From IMG/VR virus record IMGVR_UViG_3300020201_000012, positions 1-64,000 of that record: 64,000 bases of DNA; one strand, given 5' to 3'. A program made the position numbers and the translations under genes. The notes beneath the pieces were generated by a model. That model saw nothing but the letters and a program-made list of their open reading frames with translations. It was not told the origin of the DNA and ran no database searches. The DNA comes from a virus. Taxonomy: Duplodnaviria > Heunggongvirae > Uroviricota > Caudoviricetes. This document shows positions 24,622 to 52,428 of the stretch, one piece after another. Positions within the stretch are counted from its first letter, which is position 1; each line of letters opens with the position of its first letter.

Positions 24622-24692
24622 CATCCATTAGTTCAAGGGCAAGAATACACACCTACAGGTGTACGACAGCGGTTCAACTCCGTTATGGATAG
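24622..24692 (+). tRNA. tRNA-like gene with apparent 8-nt anticodon loop (ACCTACAG)
   Basis: Acceptor (6/7 bp), D-arm and T-arm are all present. The only consistent anticodon stem, TACAC/GTGTA, leaves an 8-nt loop. Confidence 0.35.
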
Positions 24693-25045: not shown

Positions 25046-25121
25046 GGGGGATTCATATAATGTCTTATTATGCTTGCCTTGCACGCAGGTCATCAGAGTT
25101 AGATTCTCTGATCTTCCACCA
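25046..25121 (+). tRNA. tRNA-Ala(UGC)-like (atypical)
   Basis: Acceptor GGGGGAT/ATCTTCC with two G-U pairs, anticodon loop CTTGCAC. Non-canonical D-loop (no GG) and T-loop (TTAGATT). Confidence 0.35.
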
Positions 25122-25300: not shown

Positions 25301-26296
25301 ATGAAGCAAGAGCCAATTAAGTCGTGGGAGGCGGGAGCTTATAATAGGGAGACTAACGAATGGGTTCATACAACACTACACAGCTACGATCACACACACG
25401 GTGACGCAGACATACGAGACCTGCTAATAAGCAGGGCTGCACCGACGAAGATAACCCCGACAAAACGAGGCAAACCGTTCAGGTCAGATGCTAGAACTCT
25501 CGTGGCAGGTGACGCACAAATACCGTTCCAAGACCCAGAAGCTTTCGATCGTTTTCAGAGAACGGTAATAGAGGTACAGCCAGACAATATAGTATTTGTC
25601 GGCGATATGATTGACCTGCCCAGTATGAGCCGCTGGAGTCAACGTTCAGAATGGGTTGGCACGACACAGGGCGCAATAGACCAGTACCATTCGTTCTTGG
25701 CTCAGACAAGAGCTAACGCACCCAACTCGAACATATCGGTCGTGCACGGCAACCACGAACAGCGAATGGACGACTACGTTCGAAAAAACGCAGCAGAGGC
25801 TTTAGGGCTAAAGAGAGCAAACTCAGCAAAAGAGCTCGCAGTGTTGACGCTCCAATACCTCGTTAGGTACGACGATTTAGAGGTACACAGCGTAGACGGC
25901 TACCCAAACGGCACTCTGTGGCTTGAAGATAATATCAAAGCAACTCACGGAACCAATGTAGCAAAAGGTGGCAGTAACGCGGCCAAGTACCTCAGACAAG
26001 AAAGGGAAACCACTTTGTACGGGCATACACACCGCCAAGAATTAGCCTACAGAACGTTTCCTATGCGAGTCGGTGCTATAACGATTGCGGCCGCTTCTCC
26101 GGGTTGTCTAGCCCTTATAGACGGGACTGTGCCGGGGTTTCACCACACGGTCGATGCCCAGGGTGAATTAGTTAAAAAAGCAGAGGACTGGCAACAAGGA
26201 CTATTAGTAATTGACCACAACTCTGGAGTACACAACATAACACCAGTGTTATTCACTGAAGAAGGATTCTACTTAGATGGAAAGAGACATAAATAA
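25301..26296 (+). CDS. Calcineurin-like metallophosphoesterase
   Basis: Motifs VAGDAQ, FVGDMID, VHGNHE and GHTH match phosphoesterase motifs I-IV. Confidence 0.55.
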   Translation: MKQEPIKSWEAGAYNRETNEWVHTTLHSYDHTHGDADIRDLLISRAAPTKITPTKRGKPFRSDARTLVAGDAQIPFQDPEAFDRFQRTVIEVQPDNIVFVGDMIDLPSMSRWSQRSEWVGTTQGAIDQYHSFLAQTRANAPNSNISVVHGNHEQRMDDYVRKNAAEALGLKRANSAKELAVLTLQYLVRYDDLEVHSVDGYPNGTLWLEDNIKATHGTNVAKGGSNAAKYLRQERETTLYGHTHRQELAYRTFPMRVGAITIAAASPGCLALIDGTVPGFHHTVDAQGELVKKAEDWQQGLLVIDHNSGVHNITPVLFTEEGFYLDGKRHK

Positions 26297-32702: not shown

Positions 32703-32742
32703 TAAGCAGCGTTCGCATAGCGGCTATTGCAGGAGACTGTAC

Positions 32743-32828
32743 GCGGTATTATACATCTAAAGACGATGCCTGGACTGTAAATCCAGTGTCCTCGGACTTA
32801 CTAGGTGCAATACCTAGATACCGCACCA
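32743..32828 (+). tRNA. tRNA-Tyr(GUA)-like gene inside the insertion (partly degenerate)
   Basis: Perfect acceptor GCGGTAT/ATACCGC+ACCA, anticodon stem CTGGA/TCCAG with loop CTGTAAA, and a long variable arm. The T-loop TGCAATA is non-canonical and there are 4 nt between the acceptor and the D-stem. Confidence 0.45.
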
Positions 32829-32865
32829 GAGACTACTAGACTCCTCTTTATGTTATAATTAATTT

Positions 32866-33249
32866 ATGGTAGTAAACACGAACAGGGATCGCGGCAATGC
32901 TGGTCTTGCTCTTGCAATATCATACTATGGGGCGAACGGATACACCGTATCGATACCGCTTAATGATACACAAGATTATGATTTGCTAATAGATAATGGA
33001 GTATCTATATCTAAAGTTCAGGCAAAGTTTTCAAAACAGCGAAGCGAACACGGGGTTCAAAAAGTACCTCTACGCAGTTCAGGCGGAACAAACGGTGGTG
33101 TATACAAGACATTAATTGACACGAATATAGACATTTTATTCTGCTCGAACCCGAATATGGAGATGTGGGCTATACCGAAATCTGAGCTAACACAAAGAAA
33201 TGTTCTCAATCTTGGTGAAAAATATCATAAGTACAAAGTTAACCTGTAA
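32866..33249 (+). CDS. ORF inside the tRNA-Tyr insertion; possible PD-(D/E)XK-type nuclease (homing-endonuclease candidate)
   Basis: 127 aa, preceded by an extended -10 (TGTTATAAT). Segment DYDLLID…SKVQAK gives a weak D…(D/E/Q)xK pattern. Its stop codon TAA (33247-33249) is the A36-A37-A38 of the tRNA-Tyr anticodon loop. Confidence 0.35.
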   Translation: MVVNTNRDRGNAGLALAISYYGANGYTVSIPLNDTQDYDLLIDNGVSISKVQAKFSKQRSEHGVQKVPLRSSGGTNGGVYKTLIDTNIDILFCSNPNMEMWAIPKSELTQRNVLNLGEKYHKYKVNL

Positions 33250-33490
33250 ATCTCCCGCCTTCGGGCATCGTAGGTTCGAGTCCTACACGCTGCACCATAT
33301 AATAATGTACCTCGTTATAATAGATAACACAGACTTTAAGTTGACCATTATGAGGTAGTGTGCTATTATTAGAAAGTCGGGAGGGTAGTTGCTTTGATAT
33401 AGAGAATTCAATTATCAAAGCTGACGTAAAACCTATACAAATTTAGGGGGTAACAAATAGTTCGACAACCTTCGCCACAAAATAAAACAC

Positions 33491-33518
33491 TTGACACGGC
33501 CAGTCAGTGTGGTATAAT
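33491..33518 (+). promoter_or_regulatory. Consensus sigma70 promoter (TTGACA-16-TATAAT)
   Basis: Perfect hexamers. An ATG lies at the predicted transcription start, giving a leaderless 27-codon ORF (33525-33608). Confidence 0.45.
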
Positions 33519-33648
33519 TAACATATGAGAACATCATCACTACATCAACAGCATTTATCTCTACTCAATCAACCGAGTTGTGATTTTAATTGGGGTTATG
33601 GTGTATAAGCGTTCTCTACAAAAATAGAATAAAAACAAAAACGCAAAA

Positions 33649-33685
33649 AGGCACCTAATCTCAAAAAAAAGGTGTCTTTTTCTTT
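33649..33685 (+). terminator. Rho-independent terminator (aggcacct…aggtgtct + T-run)
   Basis: 8-bp stem with one G-U pair, followed by TTTTTCTTT. Confidence 0.45.
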
Positions 33686-33694
33686 AACAATTAT

Positions 33695-34130
33695 AACGGA
33701 AAACCCCGGCTGGAAGAATCGTGGTACTGGGGCAAGAACACAGAGGATATGAGTTTTAGGTGTTCAACAGACGGACGAGGCTAAGGCTCGGTATTCAGTA
33801 ACAAGGAGAGTGAAACTCCTCTACCCTTCGGGGATGAGACTGTGAAACCGAGATGGGTAGCGAGCGGTCTGTAAAGCACTCCACAGTTATGGTGTGCGGT
33901 GTACACTCTTCGGGGCAGCTAGAAGATATGGTTATGTACGGGGCGGTCCGCCTACAGTGCTTGAAAGATAGTAACGGTGCCTGAAAAGTAAGACGATTCG
34001 GCATGTCACATTCACGTAGAGTACCAATAAAAGCTCTACACCGGGTTTTATTCTCGGTACCTAGTAGTATCGGTGAATGGGCGGTACAAAGTAGTTAAAG
34101 TATCTTAAACTATTAAAACCGCCCAGCAAT
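33695..34130 (+). ncRNA. Structured non-coding RNA candidate (~430 nt, class unknown)
   Basis: No ORF longer than 30 codons. GC content locally higher than the surroundings. Many short hairpins capped by UUCG tetraloops (cccTTCGggg, ctcTTCGggg, gcggTCcgcc). A long-range stem GGGCGGT…ACCGCCC. Flanked by a terminator upstream and tRNA-Trp downstream. Confidence 0.35.
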
Positions 34131-34133
34131 TGT

Positions 34134-34208
34134 AGAGAGTTAGTGAAATGGTTATCACAAGAGCTTCCAAACCTCTTATTATCGGTTCGAGTCCGATGCA
34201 CTCTGCCA
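34134..34208 (+). tRNA. tRNA-Trp(CCA)
   Basis: D-stem GTGA/TCAC, anticodon loop TTCCAAA, T-arm ATCGG-TTCGAGT-CCGAT, discriminator G, CCA. One A-A mismatch in the acceptor. Confidence 0.5.
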
Positions 34209-34211
34209 GAT

Positions 34212-34288
34212 GGACTGGTAGCTTAGTGGCTTAAAGCGCCTCCCTGTCACGGAGGAGATCGTGGGTTCAAATCCCATTCAGTCCGCCA
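34212..34288 (+). tRNA. tRNA-Asp(GUC)
   Basis: Anticodon stem CCTCC/GGAGG, loop CTGTCAC. Confidence 0.65.
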
Positions 34289-34294
34289 AAATAA

Positions 34295-34369
34295 TCCTAG
34301 TCGGCCCATCGGTAGGGTACCTCGCTGTTAACGAGTAGGTGGTTGGTTCGATTCCAACACTGGGAGCCA
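34295..34369 (+). tRNA. tRNA-Asn(GUU)
   Basis: Loop CTGTTAA, T-loop TTCGATT. Confidence 0.55.
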
Positions 34370-35479: not shown

Positions 35480-35944
35480 ATGGAACAAAAATATAACAAC
35501 ACAATAGAGTGGCTTGCTGGGCTGATAGAAGGTGAAGGAAGCTTCATAATTAAAAAAACGGGCGTATCAATAACTTGTCAGATGACAGATGAAGATGTCA
35601 TTAAAAACATAAAGAGTGTATTCGGCGGCGCAGTGTATTTCAACAAAAAAAGAAAAGAGCACTGGAAAGATTCTTGGAAATGGCAGATAAATGGTGAAGA
35701 TGCCTACAATCTGGCCGAACAGTTGAAGCCCCACATGTTCGGAAGAAGAACGCATCAAGTAAACAAATTGCTATATCAATATGAAAATTCGCCTAAAAAG
35801 CTACAACAACATAGAACTTCTAGAACAATACTTAAAGTCAAAGAACTGAGAGAATCTGGGTTATTGCACAGAGAAATAGCAGAAAAGCTAGGTGTTCATA
35901 GAACATTTGTGTCACACATATTGAGAGGAAAATACGGAGCGTGA
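35480..35944 (+). CDS. LAGLIDADG homing endonuclease (single-motif type) with C-terminal HTH
   Basis: LAGLIEGEGSF motif near the N-terminus. Free-standing between tRNA genes. Confidence 0.7.
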   Translation: MEQKYNNTIEWLAGLIEGEGSFIIKKTGVSITCQMTDEDVIKNIKSVFGGAVYFNKKRKEHWKDSWKWQINGEDAYNLAEQLKPHMFGRRTHQVNKLLYQYENSPKKLQQHRTSRTILKVKELRESGLLHREIAEKLGVHRTFVSHILRGKYGA

Positions 35945-35974
35945 AGAAGAAGTAGTCGATTCGCCAGCCTGTGA

Positions 35975-36009
35975 AGCCGGAGTAAGCCAGTGCAAGTCTG
36001 GTCATGCAC
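35975..36009 (+). other. tRNA 3'-end fragment (T-arm plus acceptor 3' strand plus CCA)
   Basis: GCCAG-TGCAAGT-CTGGT then CATGCAC-C-CCA, resembling the 3' end of tRNA-Leu(UAG) at 35250-35274. No matching 5' half was found. Confidence 0.3.
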
Positions 36010-36062
36010 CCCAAATAAAAAAGTACCTAATATAACCATAACTAGGAACTGAAAGGAGACTA

Positions 36063-37184: not shown

Positions 37185-37538
37185 GGGGCTGCCAAGGATT
37201 AGATTGCACGTTGAAAATCAGAAAAGCGAGTAGGTTGCTCACCTTTATAGGGCAAAAGACTTCTAATTGCAAAATTACTAGCATTTGTTAAGGAAAAGAT
37301 TGCTGACTTCGGTCGCGGTTTCAACCTGACACCAGCTTACGCTACGGCTTAAGCCACCCATCGTTCGATAGTAGTAGATCGAAAAGGGTGTTATACACTA
37401 CTGAGTTTTCTTGCCAGTCATAAAGGCAAGTGGTACGGGCGTTAAGATATTAATAGATGTTCTTATCTACAAAAGAACTACACTCGTAGAACACTGACAG
37501 AAGATTAGCAAGACGGGGGTTCGAATCCCCCCGGCTCC
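37185..37538 (+). ncRNA. ssrA: tmRNA (SsrA)
   Basis: 5' GGGGCUG pairs with 3' CGGCUCC. The 3' end GACGGGGGUUCGAAUCCCCCCGGCUCCA is the canonical tmRNA T-arm/acceptor. An internal reading frame ends …P-A-Y-A-T-A-UAA (stop at 37330-37332). Confidence 0.6.
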
Positions 37539-37553
37539 AAGAGTAATTAAGTT

Positions 37554-38066
37554 TTATTGATTATTGTTGGAGCTGTATAAAATATTATACCTGTTAACTA
37601 TCTCTATAGCCCAATTATAGGCATCTTCTGCACACACCCCAGATGGTTGGGGCTTACACCATAACTCTAGGTTTTCTAATCTATTATCATTTCTTATACC
37701 ATTTTTATGGTGAACGTTCTCCCCAGGTAGCAAATATCTGCCTAGAAACGCCTCCATAACAATAACGTGCTCTTGCACGATGTGTCTTTTATTGCGTGGG
37801 TGATTGGGCACATACATCGTGACATAACCACTACTACTGGTGTATTTTTTTGCTATTTTACCCGAAGCTACAGATTTTTTATTACTTTTATTATGACATC
37901 GTATGCACAGACTAGATAATATCTGTTTTTTGCCTTCGCAACCGTTGCATAAATTCCACCTATTATATTGAGCAAACCTACATCTTGGACACAATCTATG
38001 TCTATCGTCTGATCTTAGTGCAGAGTCGCATCTTATGCATGTTTTTGGTATTTTTTTATCTATCAT
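37554..38066 (-). CDS. HNH endonuclease (HNH_3/AP2-type)
   Basis: …HIVQEHVIVMEAFLGR…ENVHHKNGIRNDNRLENLEL… plus N-terminal Cys-rich repeats. Confidence 0.6.
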   Translation of the reverse strand: MIDKKIPKTCIRCDSALRSDDRHRLCPRCRFAQYNRWNLCNGCEGKKQILSSLCIRCHNKSNKKSVASGKIAKKYTSSSGYVTMYVPNHPRNKRHIVQEHVIVMEAFLGRYLLPGENVHHKNGIRNDNRLENLELWCKPQPSGVCAEDAYNWAIEIVNRYNILYSSNNNQ

Positions 38067-50934: not shown

Positions 50935-51167
50935 TATTTAGAGTGACAATGAAAGATACGGATGTTCTAGACGACGGAATCGATGAGGCGCTTGATAAGT
51001 GGTTTTTGACGAGTGGTTTACCAGAAGACGAGCAAGAGGAGATTCGTGAGATACGTCACGAAAAAGCATCAGACGTTGCAGGCCAGTGGTTTAGGTATGG
51101 TGAGTATTTAACTGTAGAAATAGATACAGAAAAAGAAACAATAAAGGTAATACGAAATGAAGTTTAA
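50931..51167 (+). CDS. Hypothetical acidic protein
   Basis: ORF only. Confidence 0.2.
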   Translation: MIFRVTMKDTDVLDDGIDEALDKWFLTSGLPEDEQEEIREIRHEKASDVAGQWFRYGEYLTVEIDTEKETIKVIRNEV

Positions 51168-52428
51168 AGAATTAGAGAACAAGAATTATGCAGCGACCAT
51201 AGTAAGAATTGATAGTCTGCACCCACTAGAGAATAGTGATAATCTCATCGGTACACCGCTTCTAGGTATGCAAGCTGTCGTTTCAAAAGACACGGAAGTG
51301 GGCACGATAGGCGTTGTTTTCGTAGCCGAGACTCAGTTGAGTGAAGAATACACAGCTAGAAATAACCTATTTCGTCACCACGAGTTTAATGAAGATAAAG
51401 ACAAGACTGGCTTCATAGAAGATAATCGTCGAGTGAAGGCTATTAAGTTGCGTGGCAGTAATTCTAACGCGTTATTTATGCCGCTTTCGTCTTTGGCTTA
51501 TACAAAAGTTGACCTTAGCGAATTCAAGATAGGTGATGCATTTGAAGAGTTAAACGGCTATGAGATTTGTAAGAAGTATCAAGTCAAATCTAAGTCTTAC
51601 CCGACCCATGAAAAAAATAAGCATAAAGTGTTCACCCGTGTCGATGAAAGAATGTTTCCGCGACATTATGATACTGACCAGTATTACAGAGTTCTTGATA
51701 CATTTAAGCCCTACACCGAGATTATTGTTACCCAAAAACTACACGGTACATTACTAAGGTTCTCAAATATTCCGGTTAAGCGTAAACTTTCACTAGCCGA
51801 AAAATGGGTGTCTAAACTAGGTGTTAAAGTACAGCAAGAAGAATATGCTCATATCTATGGGTCTAATCGTGTTATTAAAGATGCTAACAATAATAACCAA
51901 AGACATTTCTATGAACACGATATATGGACAGAAGCAGCTAAAAGATTTGACGATATGATTCCTGAAAACTTTGTTGTTTATGGTGAGTTAATCGGCTGGA
52001 CACCAGACGGTGCCCCTATTCAAAAGAACTATACATACCATGTGCCTCACCCGACTAACGAACTATACGTCTACCGAGTTGCTCAGATTAATGGGCAAGG
52101 TATCATGACCGACTTAAGTTGGGATCAGTTGAAAGAGTTCTGTAGAGATAGGGGTATGAAGCACGTACCAGAACTATGGCGTGGTAAACACCAAGACTTC
52201 AGCCCAGAAGAATGGCTAGACACAAACTATAGCGAGAAGTTGCATGGTGGTTATCCACAGGCAGTACCGCTAGACAAAGAGAGCCCGTGCGAAGAGGGTA
52301 TATGCATAAGAGTTGAAGGTCTAGCACCCTATATAGCAAAATTAAAATCACCAGAATTTTTCGCCCATGAAACAAAAATGATGGACGAAGAGGTACTGGA
52401 CATAGAAGAAGAAAGCAAGGTAGAGTGA
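51157..52428 (+). CDS. ATP-dependent RNA ligase, Rnl2-like nucleotidyltransferase domain with an N-terminal OB-like extension
   Basis: Motif I QKLHGT (compare T4 Rnl2 KIHGTN), motif III VVYGELIGW, motif IV EEGICIRVEG, motif V IAKLKS. About 190 aa N-terminal extension. Confidence 0.5.
   Translation: MKFKELENKNYAATIVRIDSLHPLENSDNLIGTPLLGMQAVVSKDTEVGTIGVVFVAETQLSEEYTARNNLFRHHEFNEDKDKTGFIEDNRRVKAIKLRGSNSNALFMPLSSLAYTKVDLSEFKIGDAFEELNGYEICKKYQVKSKSYPTHEKNKHKVFTRVDERMFPRHYDTDQYYRVLDTFKPYTEIIVTQKLHGTLLRFSNIPVKRKLSLAEKWVSKLGVKVQQEEYAHIYGSNRVIKDANNNNQRHFYEHDIWTEAAKRFDDMIPENFVVYGELIGWTPDGAPIQKNYTYHVPHPTNELYVYRVAQINGQGIMTDLSWDQLKEFCRDRGMKHVPELWRGKHQDFSPEEWLDTNYSEKLHGGYPQAVPLDKESPCEEGICIRVEGLAPYIAKLKSPEFFAHETKMMDEEVLDIEEESKVE

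What the first reader, a model, noticed from the sequence alone, without database searches (positions are those of the whole stretch)
33695..34130. Promoter- and terminator-flanked structured RNA of about 430 nt next to tRNA-Trp; class unknown
There is no credible ORF. Local GC is higher than the surroundings. Hairpins closed by UUCG tetraloops recur at 33826-33835, 33905-33915 and 33936-33946. Nested long-range pairings are present (GGGCGGU…ACCGCCC at 34078-34126). The position inside a phage tRNA array is where large ornate phage RNAs such as GOLLD and ROOL, and group I introns, are typically found. The motifs I remember for RNase P RNA (GGAAAGUCC) and group I P7 are not evident. The upstream consensus promoter (33491-33518) expresses a leaderless 27-codon ORF and terminates just before this element, so the RNA probably has its own start near 33695.
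Basis: seen in the sequence. Interest (0 to 1): 0.55.

Follow-up and report, generated by a model that had tools for sequence, protein, structure and literature searches.

The report
Two stacked phage RNAs before tRNA-Trp
The flagged 430 bases are not one large RNA but a chain of structured RNA modules, and the first (window 33760-33879) belongs to an apparently undescribed small RNA family found in about a hundred diverse phage and prophage sequences, often filling a slot in tRNA gene arrays.

Summary
The region is real, non-coding and structured, but it is modular. Module A (33760-33879, + strand) is a ~120-nt rod-shaped RNA. A two-block pattern taken from it hits 81 IMG/VR contigs and 12 genome contigs (11 confirmed; one is a chance match). 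A covariance model also finds it in relatives and in cultured phages (Streptomyces phage Braelyn, Microcystis phage Mwe-JY13), where it is unannotated. Covariation is strong: 96.5% of cells paired, score 0.511 against 0.145 in shuffles, and one R-Y pair is 55 A-U / 29 G-C with no exceptions. No Rfam 15 family matches, even at permissive thresholds. All 88 nearby tRNAs are co-oriented, and the terminal helix abuts flanking tRNAs with ordinary inter-tRNA spacing. Only about half of the copies are near tRNAs, and no protein gene recurs beside it. Module B (33930-34041) is a second, lineage-restricted RNA of four hairpins. It occurs alone, with a predicted promoter and terminator, in one contig. 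Close relatives carry module A directly before tRNA-Trp, without module B. RNase P, group I intron, GOLLD/ROOL, Y RNA and theta-ribozyme identities were tested and not met. Function is unknown. I infer a discrete stable RNA, released by tRNA processing, that acts through its conserved internal loops.

The parts
33491..33518 (+). Consensus sigma-70-type promoter (TTGACA, 16 nt, TG-TATAAT). It is the only strong promoter upstream of the element.
   Evidence: 12 of 12 matches with an extended TG. A TATAAT followed 6-7 nt later by ATG is conserved in 11 of 14 family loci.
33525..33608 (+). Leaderless 27-codon ORF (MRTSSLHQQHLSLLNQPSCDFNWGYGV), conserved as a 24-30-aa peptide in relatives. It is context for the RNA, not part of it.
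   Evidence: Examples: L121 MRTLSLHNNSLLQQPSCDFNWVNGV; L021 MKATTLHQLNPSSWLQLCSQFNDTYGSGV; L013 MKTLCSQHQPSQLWNNPDSFLAVARGL.
33645..33692 (+). Terminator-like hairpin (AAAAAGGCACCU / AGGUGUCUUUUU) with a U-tract, followed by the family-conserved box CUUUAACAAUU (33682-33692). A degenerate -10-like TATAAC lies at 33692-33697.
   Evidence: I4: 12-nt arms, 92% complementary; the hairpin plus CTTTAACAATT is aligned in all relatives. TATAAT is present only in some of them.
33697..33759 (+). Leader that is not conserved in sequence. It contains a local hairpin CCCCGG (33704-33709) / CUGGGG (33727-33732). Most homologues lack it; L005 has an unrelated leader of similar length.
   Evidence: My early 'RNase P P4' candidate (33700-33706) lies in this segment and is not conserved.
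33760..33879 (+). MODULE A, a member of a widespread and apparently undescribed phage RNA family. Outer P1: 33760-33764 / 33875-33879. Inner P1: 33768-33772 / 33867-33871. GGA bulge: 33773-33775. C33776-G33866 and the covarying pair G33777-C33865. A·G/G·A step: 33778-33779 / 33863-33864, with bulged G33862. P2: GCU 33780-33782 / AGC 33859-33861. Conserved loop: GG 33785-33786 / AUGGG 33853-33857. P3: 33787-33791 / 33848-33852. Variable distal part: 33792-33847, including the CCC-UUCG-GGG hairpin at 33824-33833.
   Evidence: Model R1 hit at 33756-33889, 76.7 bits, E = 2.5e-18, the only copy in the window. The pattern hits 81 viral and 12 genome contigs. Independent MFE folds agree. There is no Rfam hit.
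33882..33926 (+). Two linker hairpins with conserved loops, found in some long-form relatives. H1: CACA-GUUAUGG-UGUG (33882-33896). H2: UCUUC-GGGGCAGCUA-GAAGA (33907-33926), or alternatively the CUC-UUCG-GGG hairpin at 33906-33915.
   Evidence: The loops GUUAUGG and GGAUUAGCYAG are conserved in L127, L008, L011 and L009, and the stems differ between sequences (CGUAG/CUACG, CUUGG/CCAAG, CACA/UGUG).
33930..34041 (+). MODULE B, a lineage-restricted structured RNA of 112-122 nt. 5' GGUUAUGUAC. H3: about 33942-33952. H4: about 33959-33972. H5: GUGCC 33977-33981 / GGCAU 34000-34004, with a long conserved loop (GAAUAAGCGAAAAC in relatives). UGUCACAUUCA. H6: GUAGAG 34016-34021 / CUCUAC 34034-34039, with the conserved loop UACCAAUAAAAG.
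   Evidence: Eleven sequences of near-constant length. Covariation on three hairpins: 89.6% paired against 71.9%; 15 of 19 pairs change on both sides against 8.9 expected; score 0.564 against 0.248. A stand-alone copy with a TATAAT box and a terminator is in L130. The pattern hits only 4 IMG/VR contigs.
34042..34077 (+). Hairpin H7 (UUCUCGGU 34051-34058 / AUCGGUGAA 34069-34077). UUUUAUU at 34046-34052 can also pair with the H6 loop AAUAAAA at 34026-34032, giving a possible pseudoknot (inferred).
   Evidence: pairs 132-142 with 168-179, several of them compensatory. (I20: 7 nt, 100% complementary).
34078..34126 (+). Terminal hairpin UGGGCGGU...ACCGCCCA, directly before tRNA-Trp. It is also present in L121, which lacks module B, so it belongs to the junction with the tRNA.
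   Evidence: I15: 8 bp, perfect. (L121: GGGCGGUACAAAUUCACAAAACCGCCCA). (compensatory changes, for example GGGGUAG/CUACCCC in L127).
34134..34208 (+). tRNA-Trp(CCA), the first gene of the downstream tRNA array (Trp, Asp, Asn, Pro, Phe and so on). RNase P cleavage at its 5' end would set the 3' end of the upstream RNA.

Best explanation
The interval is a composite of independent structured non-coding RNA modules. They are transcribed on the + strand upstream of, and together with, a phage tRNA array. Module A (33760-33879) is one copy of a widespread family of small phage RNAs of about 86-142 nt. The fold is an irregular rod. A long terminal helix P1 (12-20 bp, variable in sequence, with a small asymmetric internal loop) leads into a near-invariant core: a GGA bulge, two pairs including a strictly covarying R-Y pair, an A·G/G·A step, a 3-bp helix GCU/RGC, an internal loop GG / RUGGG, and then helix P3 with a purine-rich internal loop and a dispensable distal part. 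Module B (33930-34041) is a second RNA of four hairpins, restricted to this lineage. It has been inserted between module A and tRNA-Trp in part of the phage family. Shown: homology, the secondary structures, the strand, modularity, co-orientation with tRNAs and tRNA-like spacing, and the absence from Rfam. Inferred: module A is cut out as a discrete stable RNA by the enzymes that mature the flanking tRNAs (RNase P at the next tRNA's 5' end, 3'-end processing of the previous tRNA), or, where no tRNAs flank it, by cleavage in the long P1. Also inferred: it acts in trans through its invariant internal loops by binding a factor common to very different bacteria (a protein, an RNA or a small ligand). 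It is not a cis-regulator of one gene class.
For: Homologues lie at the syntenic position in related phages (nhmmer E = 3e-19 to 1e-6). The two-block pattern finds 81 IMG/VR and 12 genome contigs. The one non-RNA hit (L113) and the early chance 19-mer hits (L001, L002) score nothing with model R1. Copies that were not in the seed alignment are recovered at 37-83 bits: L011, L121, L122, L126, L127, L128, Braelyn and Mwe-JY13. Covariation on A3: 96.5% of cells paired against 76.9% in shuffles; 201 cells changed on both sides against 53; score 0.511 against 0.145 (0 of 500 shuffles reach it) and 0.02-0.07 for slid controls; the R-Y pair is 55 A-U / 29 G-C / 0 other (58/29/0 among all 87 copies). 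MFE folds of five independent copies give the same rod. G-U pairs fit the + strand only. All 88 tRNAs within -150 to +520 nt are co-oriented. Gaps from tRNA to P1 are 0-14 nt, and gaps from P1 to the next tRNA are mostly 2-10 nt. Only 7 of 90 copies have a U-rich tail. Modularity: module A occurs alone in L005, L121, L122 and L126; module B occurs alone in L130; module B covariation is. No protein family recurs nearby. Downstream ORFs are diverse, and in 18 of 44 tRNA-free loci the nearest one is on the opposite strand. No Rfam family matches at E <= 10 in the window or E <= 5 in 16 other loci.
Against: No expression or end-mapping data exist, so the transcript and its processing are inferred. 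Much of the apparent invariance of the core was imposed by my search pattern. Divergent copies do vary: ACGAAC in L011 and GCGCG in L129. The 3-bp helix P2 is invariant in the sample, so covariation does not test it; only U-A/U-G alternation is seen. About half of the copies have no tRNA within roughly 9 kb, so release by tRNA-processing enzymes cannot be general. Nothing identifies the binding partner or activity. Module B's evidence rests on 11 related sequences. In the window itself no good promoter lies between the terminator-like hairpin and module A, so expression may depend on read-through.
Confidence: 0.6

Rival explanations
1. It is one large (~430-nt) ornate RNA, comparable to GOLLD or ROOL, whose parts fold and work together.
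For: In the window and in L127, L128, L021, L013, L008 and L015 the modules are contiguous, co-oriented and lie between the same landmarks. Some long-range complementarities exist in the window (I5, I7, I24).
Against: Module A stands alone in about 90 contigs and in four close relatives, where it abuts tRNA-Trp. Module B stands alone in L130 with its own predicted promoter and terminator. The first ~65 nt are not conserved. The window's long-range pairings (for example 33700-06/34043-49) are not conserved. GOLLD and ROOL models give no hit.
Confidence: 0.06
2. It is a highly divergent member of a known catalytic RNA family, either RNase P RNA or a group I intron.
For: By eye, GGAAAACCCCGGCU resembles CR-I, AAAACCC/GGGUUUU could form a P4, GUUCAACAGACGGAC resembles the group I R element, and GAAGAUAUGGUU resembles the S element. 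A related phage does encode an RNase P RNA. Homing endonuclease genes are nearby.
Against: No RNase P or Intron_gpI hit appears at E <= 10. The candidate P4 5' strand lies in the non-conserved leader. L021 carries a bona fide 236-nt RNase P RNA (105.5 bits) at another place as well as its copy of this element. Short forms of 84-115 nt flanked by tRNAs are too small to be either, and they interrupt no gene.
Confidence: 0.02
3. Module A is a cis-acting element of the transcript that carries it: a leader, attenuator or antitermination signal, or a processing or stability signal for the tRNA operon. It is not a trans-acting RNA.
For: It is always co-oriented with tRNAs (88 of 88) and is rarely followed by a terminator (7 of 90). 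In the window's phage family it always sits between a promoter / leader-ORF / terminator-like hairpin and tRNA-Trp. The long P1 with an asymmetric internal loop looks like an RNase III-type processing stem (my inference from established knowledge of phage T7 RNase III sites).
Against: Half of the copies have no tRNA in about 9 kb. Downstream genes are unrelated to each other and often on the other strand. A 12-20-bp P1 is too stable for a switching element. About 30 near-invariant nucleotides conserved across hosts of many phyla is more than a simple processing signal needs.
Confidence: 0.15
4. Module A is a small self-cleaving (or otherwise catalytic) RNA, or a ligand-binding aptamer or 'sponge' such as an anti-defence RNA.
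For: It has a compact ~62-nt minimal core (Braelyn). Near-invariant nucleotides are concentrated in junctions and loops. It is spread across unrelated phages with no protein partner. HDV-like theta ribozymes set a precedent for catalytic RNAs next to phage tRNAs (PMC10879173). The recurrent ACCA / AGY loop in P1 could be a cleavage site.
Against: No known ribozyme or riboswitch model matches. The topology (everything enclosed by P1, no demonstrated pseudoknot) differs from HDV-like ribozymes. There is no expression platform. Nothing in the sequence data tests catalysis or binding.
Confidence: 0.12
5. The region encodes a small protein, and the conservation is at the coding level.
For: ORFs of 43 aa (33853-33984, +) and 69 aa (33795-34004, -) exist.
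Against: Homologues differ by many indels that are not multiples of three and by paired compensatory substitutions. These ORFs are not preserved in relatives. The only conserved small ORF lies upstream, at 33525-33608.
Confidence: 0.01

Closest known systems
Phage T4 species 1 and species 2 RNAs (rnaC, rnaD)
   Same: They are small stable RNAs (139 and 119 nt) of unknown function. They sit inside a phage tRNA gene cluster, are co-oriented with the tRNAs and lie a few nucleotides from them, next to a homing endonuclease gene.
   Different: No sequence or structure homology: model R1 finds nothing in the T4 tRNA region even with filters off (best 5.1 bits, E = 3.6). Module A is also found outside tRNA clusters and in phages of many host phyla.
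GOLLD and ROOL large ornate RNAs
   Same: They are phage- and prophage-associated structured RNAs of unknown biochemical function that often lie near tRNA genes (my knowledge, and PMC12286853).
   Different: Those RNAs are about 600-800 nt with many-way junctions. Module A is about 85-140 nt and rod-like. The Rfam models give no hit.
Bacterial Y RNAs (YrlA/YrlB) bound by Ro60/Rsr
   Same: Their 5' and 3' ends pair into a long stem with a conserved protein-binding irregularity. They also occur in phages, and some are processed by RNase P (PMC4201824).
   Different: The defining GNCGAAN0-1G motif and the D-arm and T-arm mimics are absent from module A. No Rfam Y RNA hit was found. Among the ORFs I annotated in the window none had a TROVE match, and no protein family recurs near the motif.
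HDV-like theta ribozymes of gut phages
   Same: They are small structured RNAs placed directly next to viral tRNA genes and are thought to take part in tRNA transcript processing (PMC10879173).
   Different: Theta ribozymes have the nested double-pseudoknot HDV fold, whose 5'-most strand is not enclosed by a terminal helix. Module A is fully enclosed by P1. No HDV-like Rfam model matches.
Bacterial RNase P RNA (class A), including the compact 236-nt copy in the related phage contig L021
   Same: It is a stable RNA encoded within phage tRNA arrays of the same phage lineage.
   Different: It is a separate gene: L021 has both. Module A lacks CR-I to CR-V and P4 and gives no RNase P hit.
4.5S (small SRP) RNA, as a working analogy only
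   Same: It is a rod-shaped RNA of about 110 nt whose ends pair. Its function resides in conserved internal loops that bind a universal protein, and its precursor is matured by RNase P (established knowledge).
   Different: There is no sequence similarity to the domain IV motifs and no Rfam SRP hit. Any partner of module A is unknown.

Membership tests
Module A family (defined here; model R1) | A terminal helix P1 of variable sequence closes the RNA and contains a small asymmetric internal loop. | tested here: met
   Window: 33760-33764/33875-33879 and 33768-33772/33867-33871. The family has 12-20 bp in total. The inner P1 covaries: GC 40, AU 31, CG 11, UA 2, none broken.
Module A family (defined here; model R1) | The core contains CGGAC-R-AGGCU ... 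RUGGG-N-RGCGAG-Y-GG, with R pairing to Y. | tested here: met
   Window: CGGACGAGGCU (33772-33782) and AUGGGUAGCGAGCGG (33853-33867), with G33777-C33865. Across the family the pair is 55 A-U / 29 G-C / 0 other. R1 scores the window copy at 76.7 bits.
Module A family (defined here; model R1) | Helix P3 starts right after GG and ends right before RUGGG, with compensatory changes. | tested here: met
   Window: CUCGG/CCGAG (33787-33791/33848-33852). All 4 P3 pairs show changes on both sides.
Bacterial RNase P RNA | Conserved regions CR-I and CR-V form helix P4, and the class A or B covariance model matches. | tested here: not met
   No RF00010, RF00011 or RF00373 hit at E <= 10 or E <= 0.5 window-wide. 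The candidate P4 strand at 33700-33706 is not conserved. L021 has a separate true RNase P RNA.
Group I intron | A P3-P9 core with a P7 guanosine site, insertion within a host gene with flanking exons, and a match to the Intron_gpI model. | tested here: not met
   No RF00028 hit. The element interrupts no gene: it lies between a promoter region and an intact tRNA-Trp. Short forms of 84-115 nt are too small.
GOLLD / ROOL / HEARO / OLE / raiA and other curated large bacterial or phage RNAs | A match to the family covariance model. | tested here: not met
   No match among all 4227 Rfam 15 families at gathering threshold, at E <= 10 on 33400-34300, at E <= 1 on six related loci, or at E <= 5 on 16 diverse loci.
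Y RNA (YrlA-like) | A GNCGAAN0-1G motif in the stem, T-arm and D-arm mimics, and a gene adjacent to a Ro60/TROVE gene (PMC4201824). | tested here: not met
   The motif and a T-arm-like GUUCGAAUC are absent from the alignment. No recurrent neighbouring protein family was found. TROVE was not searched for specifically in every locus.
HDV-like (theta) ribozyme | A nested double pseudoknot (P1, P1.1, P2, P3, P4) with the cleavage site at the 5' end of P1. | tested here: not met
   The covariation-supported topology is a single enclosed rod. No HDV-like Rfam hit was found. Self-cleavage itself cannot be tested with these tools.
tRNA / tmRNA / tRNA-like acceptor mimic | A cloverleaf or T-arm, and a 7-bp acceptor stem followed by NCCA. 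| tested here: not met
   ARAGORN and Rfam tRNA/tmRNA models do not call it. NCCA directly after P1 is seen in only a few copies; the tails are diverse. ACCA is frequent as the P1 internal loop (22 of 84) but is not general.
T4 rnaC / rnaD | Sequence or structure homology to the T4 species 1 or 2 RNAs. | tested here: not met
   R1 with filters off on T4 68000-76000 gives nothing above 5.1 bits.

The most novel reading that the evidence does not exclude
Module A is a new class of phage-encoded functional RNA. Its compact, near-invariant core would bind or act on something common to bacteria of many phyla: for example a component of the tRNA or translation machinery, a tRNA-targeting defence nuclease (as a decoy or inhibitor), or a signalling nucleotide. 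Phages would deliver it by packaging it as an extra 'gene slot' in tRNA arrays. If it is catalytic or ligand-binding, it would be a new ribozyme or aptamer class.
Probability: 0.3. Interest if true: 0.85.

Novelty: categorically new. Interest (0 to 1): 0.68.

Why it matters
Phage tRNA arrays are now seen as tools for codon supply and for escaping host nucleases that destroy tRNAs. Apart from T4's RNAs C and D, which remain unexplained after 50 years, the other RNAs stored in these arrays are barely catalogued. This work identifies a compact RNA with strong covariation support. It is found in about a hundred unrelated phage and prophage sequences from hosts spanning Proteobacteria, Actinobacteria, Bacillales, Cyanobacteria and others. 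No curated family covers it and no genome record that I fetched annotates it. It is present in cultured phages (Streptomyces phage Braelyn and relatives, Microcystis phage Mwe-JY13), so its expression, processing, partners and knockout phenotype can be tested directly. The result also shows that apparent 'large RNAs' in such arrays can be stacks of independent modules. The family is new at the level of RNA family. The general kind (a stable small RNA embedded in a phage tRNA cluster) has a precedent in T4, and the function here remains unknown.

Tried and rejected
(1) I threaded the window sequence onto RNase P (CR-I-like GGAAAACCCCGGCU, and P4 = 33700-06/34043-49). Rejected: that segment is not conserved, no CM hit appears, and L021 has a separate RNase P RNA. 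(2) Group I intron R/S-like strings were rejected for the same reasons, and because the short forms are too small. (3) A 21-mer pattern from the window found nothing, and a 19-mer found only chance hits inside an unrelated coding sequence. (4) BLAST of the element and of a structural-gene block against 50,697 phage records found only tRNA-Trp similarity or nothing. (5) A single-protein scan of IMG/VR and an exact-protein lookup with the neighbouring exonuclease both failed. An alignment-based scan and lookups of its homologues worked. (6) A local mini-hairpin GGC-UNNG-GCC as P2 was rejected because column 33 pairs with column 124, with compensatory changes (U-A, A-U). The GCU/RGC pairing fits better, but covariation does not test it. 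(7) The idea of an acceptor stem plus NCCA was rejected because the tails after P1 are diverse. (8) Resemblances by eye to the c-di-GMP-I aptamer (GGUAGGUAGCGGGG), the T-box bulge, 5S loop E, twister/twister-sister and a tRNA D-arm are not backed by any CM hit or by matching topology. (9) Y RNA was rejected after reading PMC4201824: the defining motifs are absent. (10) T4 rnaC/rnaD and the Streptomyces phage Tomas tRNA region gave no R1 hit. (11) A search for a recurrent neighbouring protein found none. (12) Six literature searches, including the invariant sequence strings themselves, found no description. The supplements of the 2023 IMG/VR catalogue are not held, so the motif may be among its 8,495 unnamed candidates. 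(13) RNAalifold on the MAFFT alignment could not resolve module B hairpin H4. It is supported only by eye (GCUA/UAGC, CCUA/UAGG, GUGAGU/ACUCAC, GCGA/UCGC, UGCU/AGCA).
Full report
WHAT IS IN THE SEQUENCE. The interval 33695-34130 lies on the + strand. Upstream are a consensus promoter (33491-33518, 12 of 12 matches), a 27-codon ORF that starts 6 nt after the -10 box (33525-33608) and a terminator-like hairpin with a U-tract (33645-33690). Downstream is tRNA-Trp (34134-34208), the first gene of a ten-tRNA run. The window comes from a large tailed phage with a tape-measure protein, ribonucleotide reductase, a DnaB-like helicase, an RNA ligase, 24 tRNA genes, a tmRNA and several homing endonuclease genes. 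The interval has no ORF longer than 69 aa, and its GC content is about 0.51 against 0.33-0.40 in the flanks. The third 'UUCG' hairpin is really GGCGG-UC-CGCC. The folding energy of the whole interval is only mildly better than shuffles, and equally so on the wrong strand (z = -2.29 and -2.64), so energy alone proves nothing.

KNOWN FAMILIES. Rfam 15 (4227 models) gives no hit in the interval at gathering thresholds. It gives none at E <= 10 on a 901-nt slice, where filters are lax, and none at E <= 0.5 over the whole window. BLAST against 50,697 phage records matches only the tRNA-Trp. I first suspected a divergent RNase P RNA, because GGAAAACCCCGGCU resembles CR-I and AAAACCC/GGGUUUU could form a P4. 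Homologues removed that idea (see below).

FINDING HOMOLOGUES. The phage has no close DNA relative in the phage collection. The exonuclease gene about 1.5 kb upstream has many relatives at 57-72% identity. Loci fetched through it carry a homologue of the element at the syntenic position and on the same relative strand (nhmmer E = 3e-19 to 1e-6). Their alignment shows that conservation starts only at GACGGACGAGGCU (window 33770). The preceding ~65 nt, which include my 'P4' strand, are not conserved. One relative (L021) has a true 236-nt class A RNase P RNA elsewhere (105.5 bits) as well as its copy of the element. RNase P is therefore excluded.

MODULE A IS WIDESPREAD. A pattern built from two conserved blocks (CGGACRAGGCU, then 50-80 nt, then UGGGNRGCGAGYGG) hits 81 IMG/VR contigs and 12 contigs of bacterial genomes or MAGs. 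The latter include isolates of Rhodovarius, Agaricicola and Bosea, and MAGs assigned to Acidobacteria, Planctomycetes, Actinobacteria, Bacillales, Gammaproteobacteria and Parcubacteria. One genome hit (L113, inside a coding sequence) is a chance match. It scores nothing with the later covariance model, as do the two early chance 19-mer hits. In 84 distinct copies the R and Y that the pattern left free are always complementary (55 A-U, 29 G-C, 0 other; 58/29/0 among all 87).

MODULE A STRUCTURE. The explicit structure has an inner P1, a GGA bulge, C-G and R-Y pairs, a GCU/RGC helix and helix P3. On alignment A3 it gives 96.5% paired cells (76.9% in shuffles), 201 cells changed on both sides (53 in shuffles) and a covariation score of 0.511 (0.145 in shuffles, 0 of 500 reaching it; slid controls 0.02-0.07). 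The outer part of P1 was neither in the pattern nor usefully modelled. Even so, it is present in nearly every copy as a further 4-15 bp of unrelated sequence beyond a small asymmetric loop. That loop is ACCA in 22 of 84 copies and AGY in others. Minimum-energy folds of five unrelated copies reproduce the same rod. G-U pairs fit the + strand only.

MODULE A COPIES OUTSIDE THE SEED. Model R1 finds exactly one copy in the window (33756-33889, 76.7 bits) and one per contig elsewhere. It recovers copies outside the seed at 37-83 bits. These include cultured phages: Microcystis phage Mwe-JY13 (83.1 bits) and Streptomyces phage Braelyn (71.1 bits). BLAST also points to Mandalore, Anedea, Navo and Riptide. 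The BLAST table shows no annotated feature under the match in any annotated record (Mandalore's record carries no annotation), and the two regions I fetched, Braelyn and Mwe-JY13, confirm this. The Braelyn copy is a minimal 84-nt form with P3 capped by a short loop, so the variable distal region is dispensable. A caveat is that the pattern imposed much of the core's invariance. Divergent copies do vary (ACGAAC in L011, GCGCG in L129), and the 3-bp P2 helix remains untested by covariation.

CONTEXT OF MODULE A. In the -150 to +520 nt stretches, 40 of 91 copies have a tRNA, and all 88 such tRNAs are on the motif's strand. Where tRNAs flank it, the previous tRNA ends 0-14 nt before P1 and the next tRNA starts mostly 2-10 nt after P1. 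This is ordinary inter-tRNA spacing. The P1-closed RNA is 86-142 nt long (median 113). Only 7 of 90 copies have a U-rich tail. Of 81 distinct loci, 39 contain tRNAs, 38 of them within 2 kb of the motif, and 42 have none in about 9 kb. No protein family recurs within 3 kb. In tRNA-free loci the nearest downstream ORFs are unrelated to each other (a head-tail adaptor, a methyltransferase, unknowns), and in 18 of 44 loci the nearest one is on the other strand. These facts argue for a free-standing RNA gene and against a leader of one gene class.

THE REST OF THE INTERVAL. Four close relatives (L005, L121, L122, L126) have module A followed within 10-76 nt by tRNA-Trp. The window, L127, L128, L021, L013, L008 and L015 have 200-360 extra nucleotides there. 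The core of that insert, module B (window 33930-34041), is 112-122 nt in 11 sequences. It consists of four hairpins with conserved loops (GAAUAAGCGAAAAC and UACCAAUGAAAG). Three of the hairpins show 89.6% pairing, 15 of 19 pairs changed on both sides (8.9 expected, 0 of 500 shuffles) and a score of 0.564 against 0.248. Its pattern hits only four IMG/VR contigs. Three are contigs of the related phages already fetched; the fourth, L130, is new and lacks module A. In L130 module B stands alone, about 55 nt after a TATAAT box and directly before a hairpin plus U-tract terminator. The terminal hairpin (34078-34126) is also present in L121, which lacks module B. Two further hairpins with conserved loops (33882-33926) are shared with only some relatives. 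The 430 nt are therefore a stack: leader, module A, linker hairpins, module B, hairpin H7 and a terminal hairpin.

HOW IT PROBABLY WORKS. Shown: the structures, the strand, the modularity, co-orientation with tRNAs and the tRNA-like spacing. Inferred: module A is co-transcribed with tRNAs and freed as a discrete RNA whose paired ends protect it. RNase P cleavage of the next tRNA and 3' maturation of the previous one would release it. Where no tRNA flanks it, cleavage in the long P1 would be needed; its asymmetric loop resembles phage RNase III sites (my inference). About 30 near-invariant nucleotides sit in bulges and internal loops of a rod, and they are conserved across phages of very different hosts with no partner gene. 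I therefore think it most likely acts in trans on a factor common to bacteria, whether a protein, an RNA or a small ligand. I cannot say which. In the window itself no convincing promoter lies between the terminator-like hairpin and module A (TATAAC only). Expression may depend on read-through from the promoter at 33491. Relatives have TATAAT at that position in some cases and nothing in others.

COMPARISON WITH WHAT IS KNOWN. The nearest analogues by position and likely biogenesis are T4 RNAs C and D, but R1 finds nothing in T4. GOLLD and ROOL share the phage and tRNA neighbourhood, but not the size, the fold or a model match. Y RNAs share the paired-ends stem but have defining motifs that are absent here (PMC4201824). 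Theta ribozymes share the tRNA adjacency but have a different topology (PMC10879173). Six literature searches, including the invariant sequence strings, found no description. The 2023 IMG/VR catalogue of 8,495 unnamed candidates could contain it, but its supplements are not held.

VERDICT. Module A appears to be a new RNA family with strong comparative support and experimentally tractable hosts. Module B is a second, narrowly distributed one. Function is unknown.

Noticed in passing
window 32706-33297: tRNA-Tyr(GUA) is split in its anticodon loop. The 5' half lies at 32706-~32742 and the 3' half at ~33248-33297. Joining them gives an 85-nt tRNA-Tyr that ARAGORN accepts. The ~505-nt insert carries a PD-(D/E)XK endonuclease ORF (32866-33249; PF11645, I-Ssp6803I-like), a second, odd tRNA-Tyr-like sequence (32744-32829) and a group I R-like string, CCAGAGACUACUAGAC. 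The Rfam group I model does not hit. Whether this is an intron or a homing-endonuclease cassette is unresolved.
   Followed up: partly
window 33491-33692; also L121, L126, L128, L008, L009, L011, L013, L015, L021, L129: A leaderless micro-ORF (ATG 6-7 nt after TATAAT) encodes 24-30-aa peptides with shared features (LHQ/QHQ, a conserved Trp, D·F). It is conserved in 11 of 14 family loci and is always followed by a hairpin plus U-tract, then module A and tRNA-Trp. This could be a small protein, or a leader peptide of an attenuator that controls the tRNA operon.
   Followed up: partly
L021 10874-11109 (-) (IMGVR_UViG_3300004463_000307): A related phage contig encodes a compact 236-nt bacterial class A RNase P RNA (Rfam 105.5 bits, gathering score 100) inside a tRNA array. 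The window has no RNase P hit, even at E <= 0.5.
   Followed up: partly
window 37185-37540 (+): A phage-encoded tmRNA (Rfam RF00023, 62.8 bits, gathering score 47). ARAGORN did not call it in the window. Relatives L013 and L125 also carry tmRNAs.
   Followed up: no
L130 10138-10253 (-) (IMGVR_UViG_3300033074_001340): Module B occurs as a stand-alone predicted small RNA gene. A TATAAT box lies about 55 nt upstream and a clear intrinsic terminator (GACUCUCAUAAAAAUGGGAGUC plus a U-run) directly downstream. There is no module A in the locus.
   Followed up: partly
window 35480-35944, 35937-36010, 37554-38066: The tRNA region is rich in homing-endonuclease-like genes. A LAGLIDADG/HTH ORF lies between tRNA-Ser and a weak tRNA-like hit (Rfam 30 bits, not called by ARAGORN). 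An HNH ORF sits on the minus strand just after the tmRNA.
   Followed up: no
window 24622-24692 and 25046-25118: In the first tRNA array, ARAGORN reports a tRNA with an abnormal 2-nt 'anticodon' (tRNA-???). Rfam finds a tRNA at 25046-25118 that ARAGORN misses.
   Followed up: no
L094 3491-3558 (-): A DUF3800-VIII RNA motif (Rfam 44.1 bits, gathering score 40.2) lies about 120 nt upstream of that contig's module A copy, on the same strand.
   Followed up: no
L070 1193-1275; L040 (ARAGORN tmRNA directly after the motif): In some contigs module A is followed immediately by a tmRNA or a tmRNA-like tRNA domain rather than a tRNA. It therefore shares arrays with several kinds of stable RNA.
   Followed up: no
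window 51157-52428 and 25301-26296: An RNA ligase (phrog_968, E = 4e-100) and a calcineurin-like phosphoesterase next to the first tRNA array may indicate an RNA-repair capacity in this phage.
   Followed up: no
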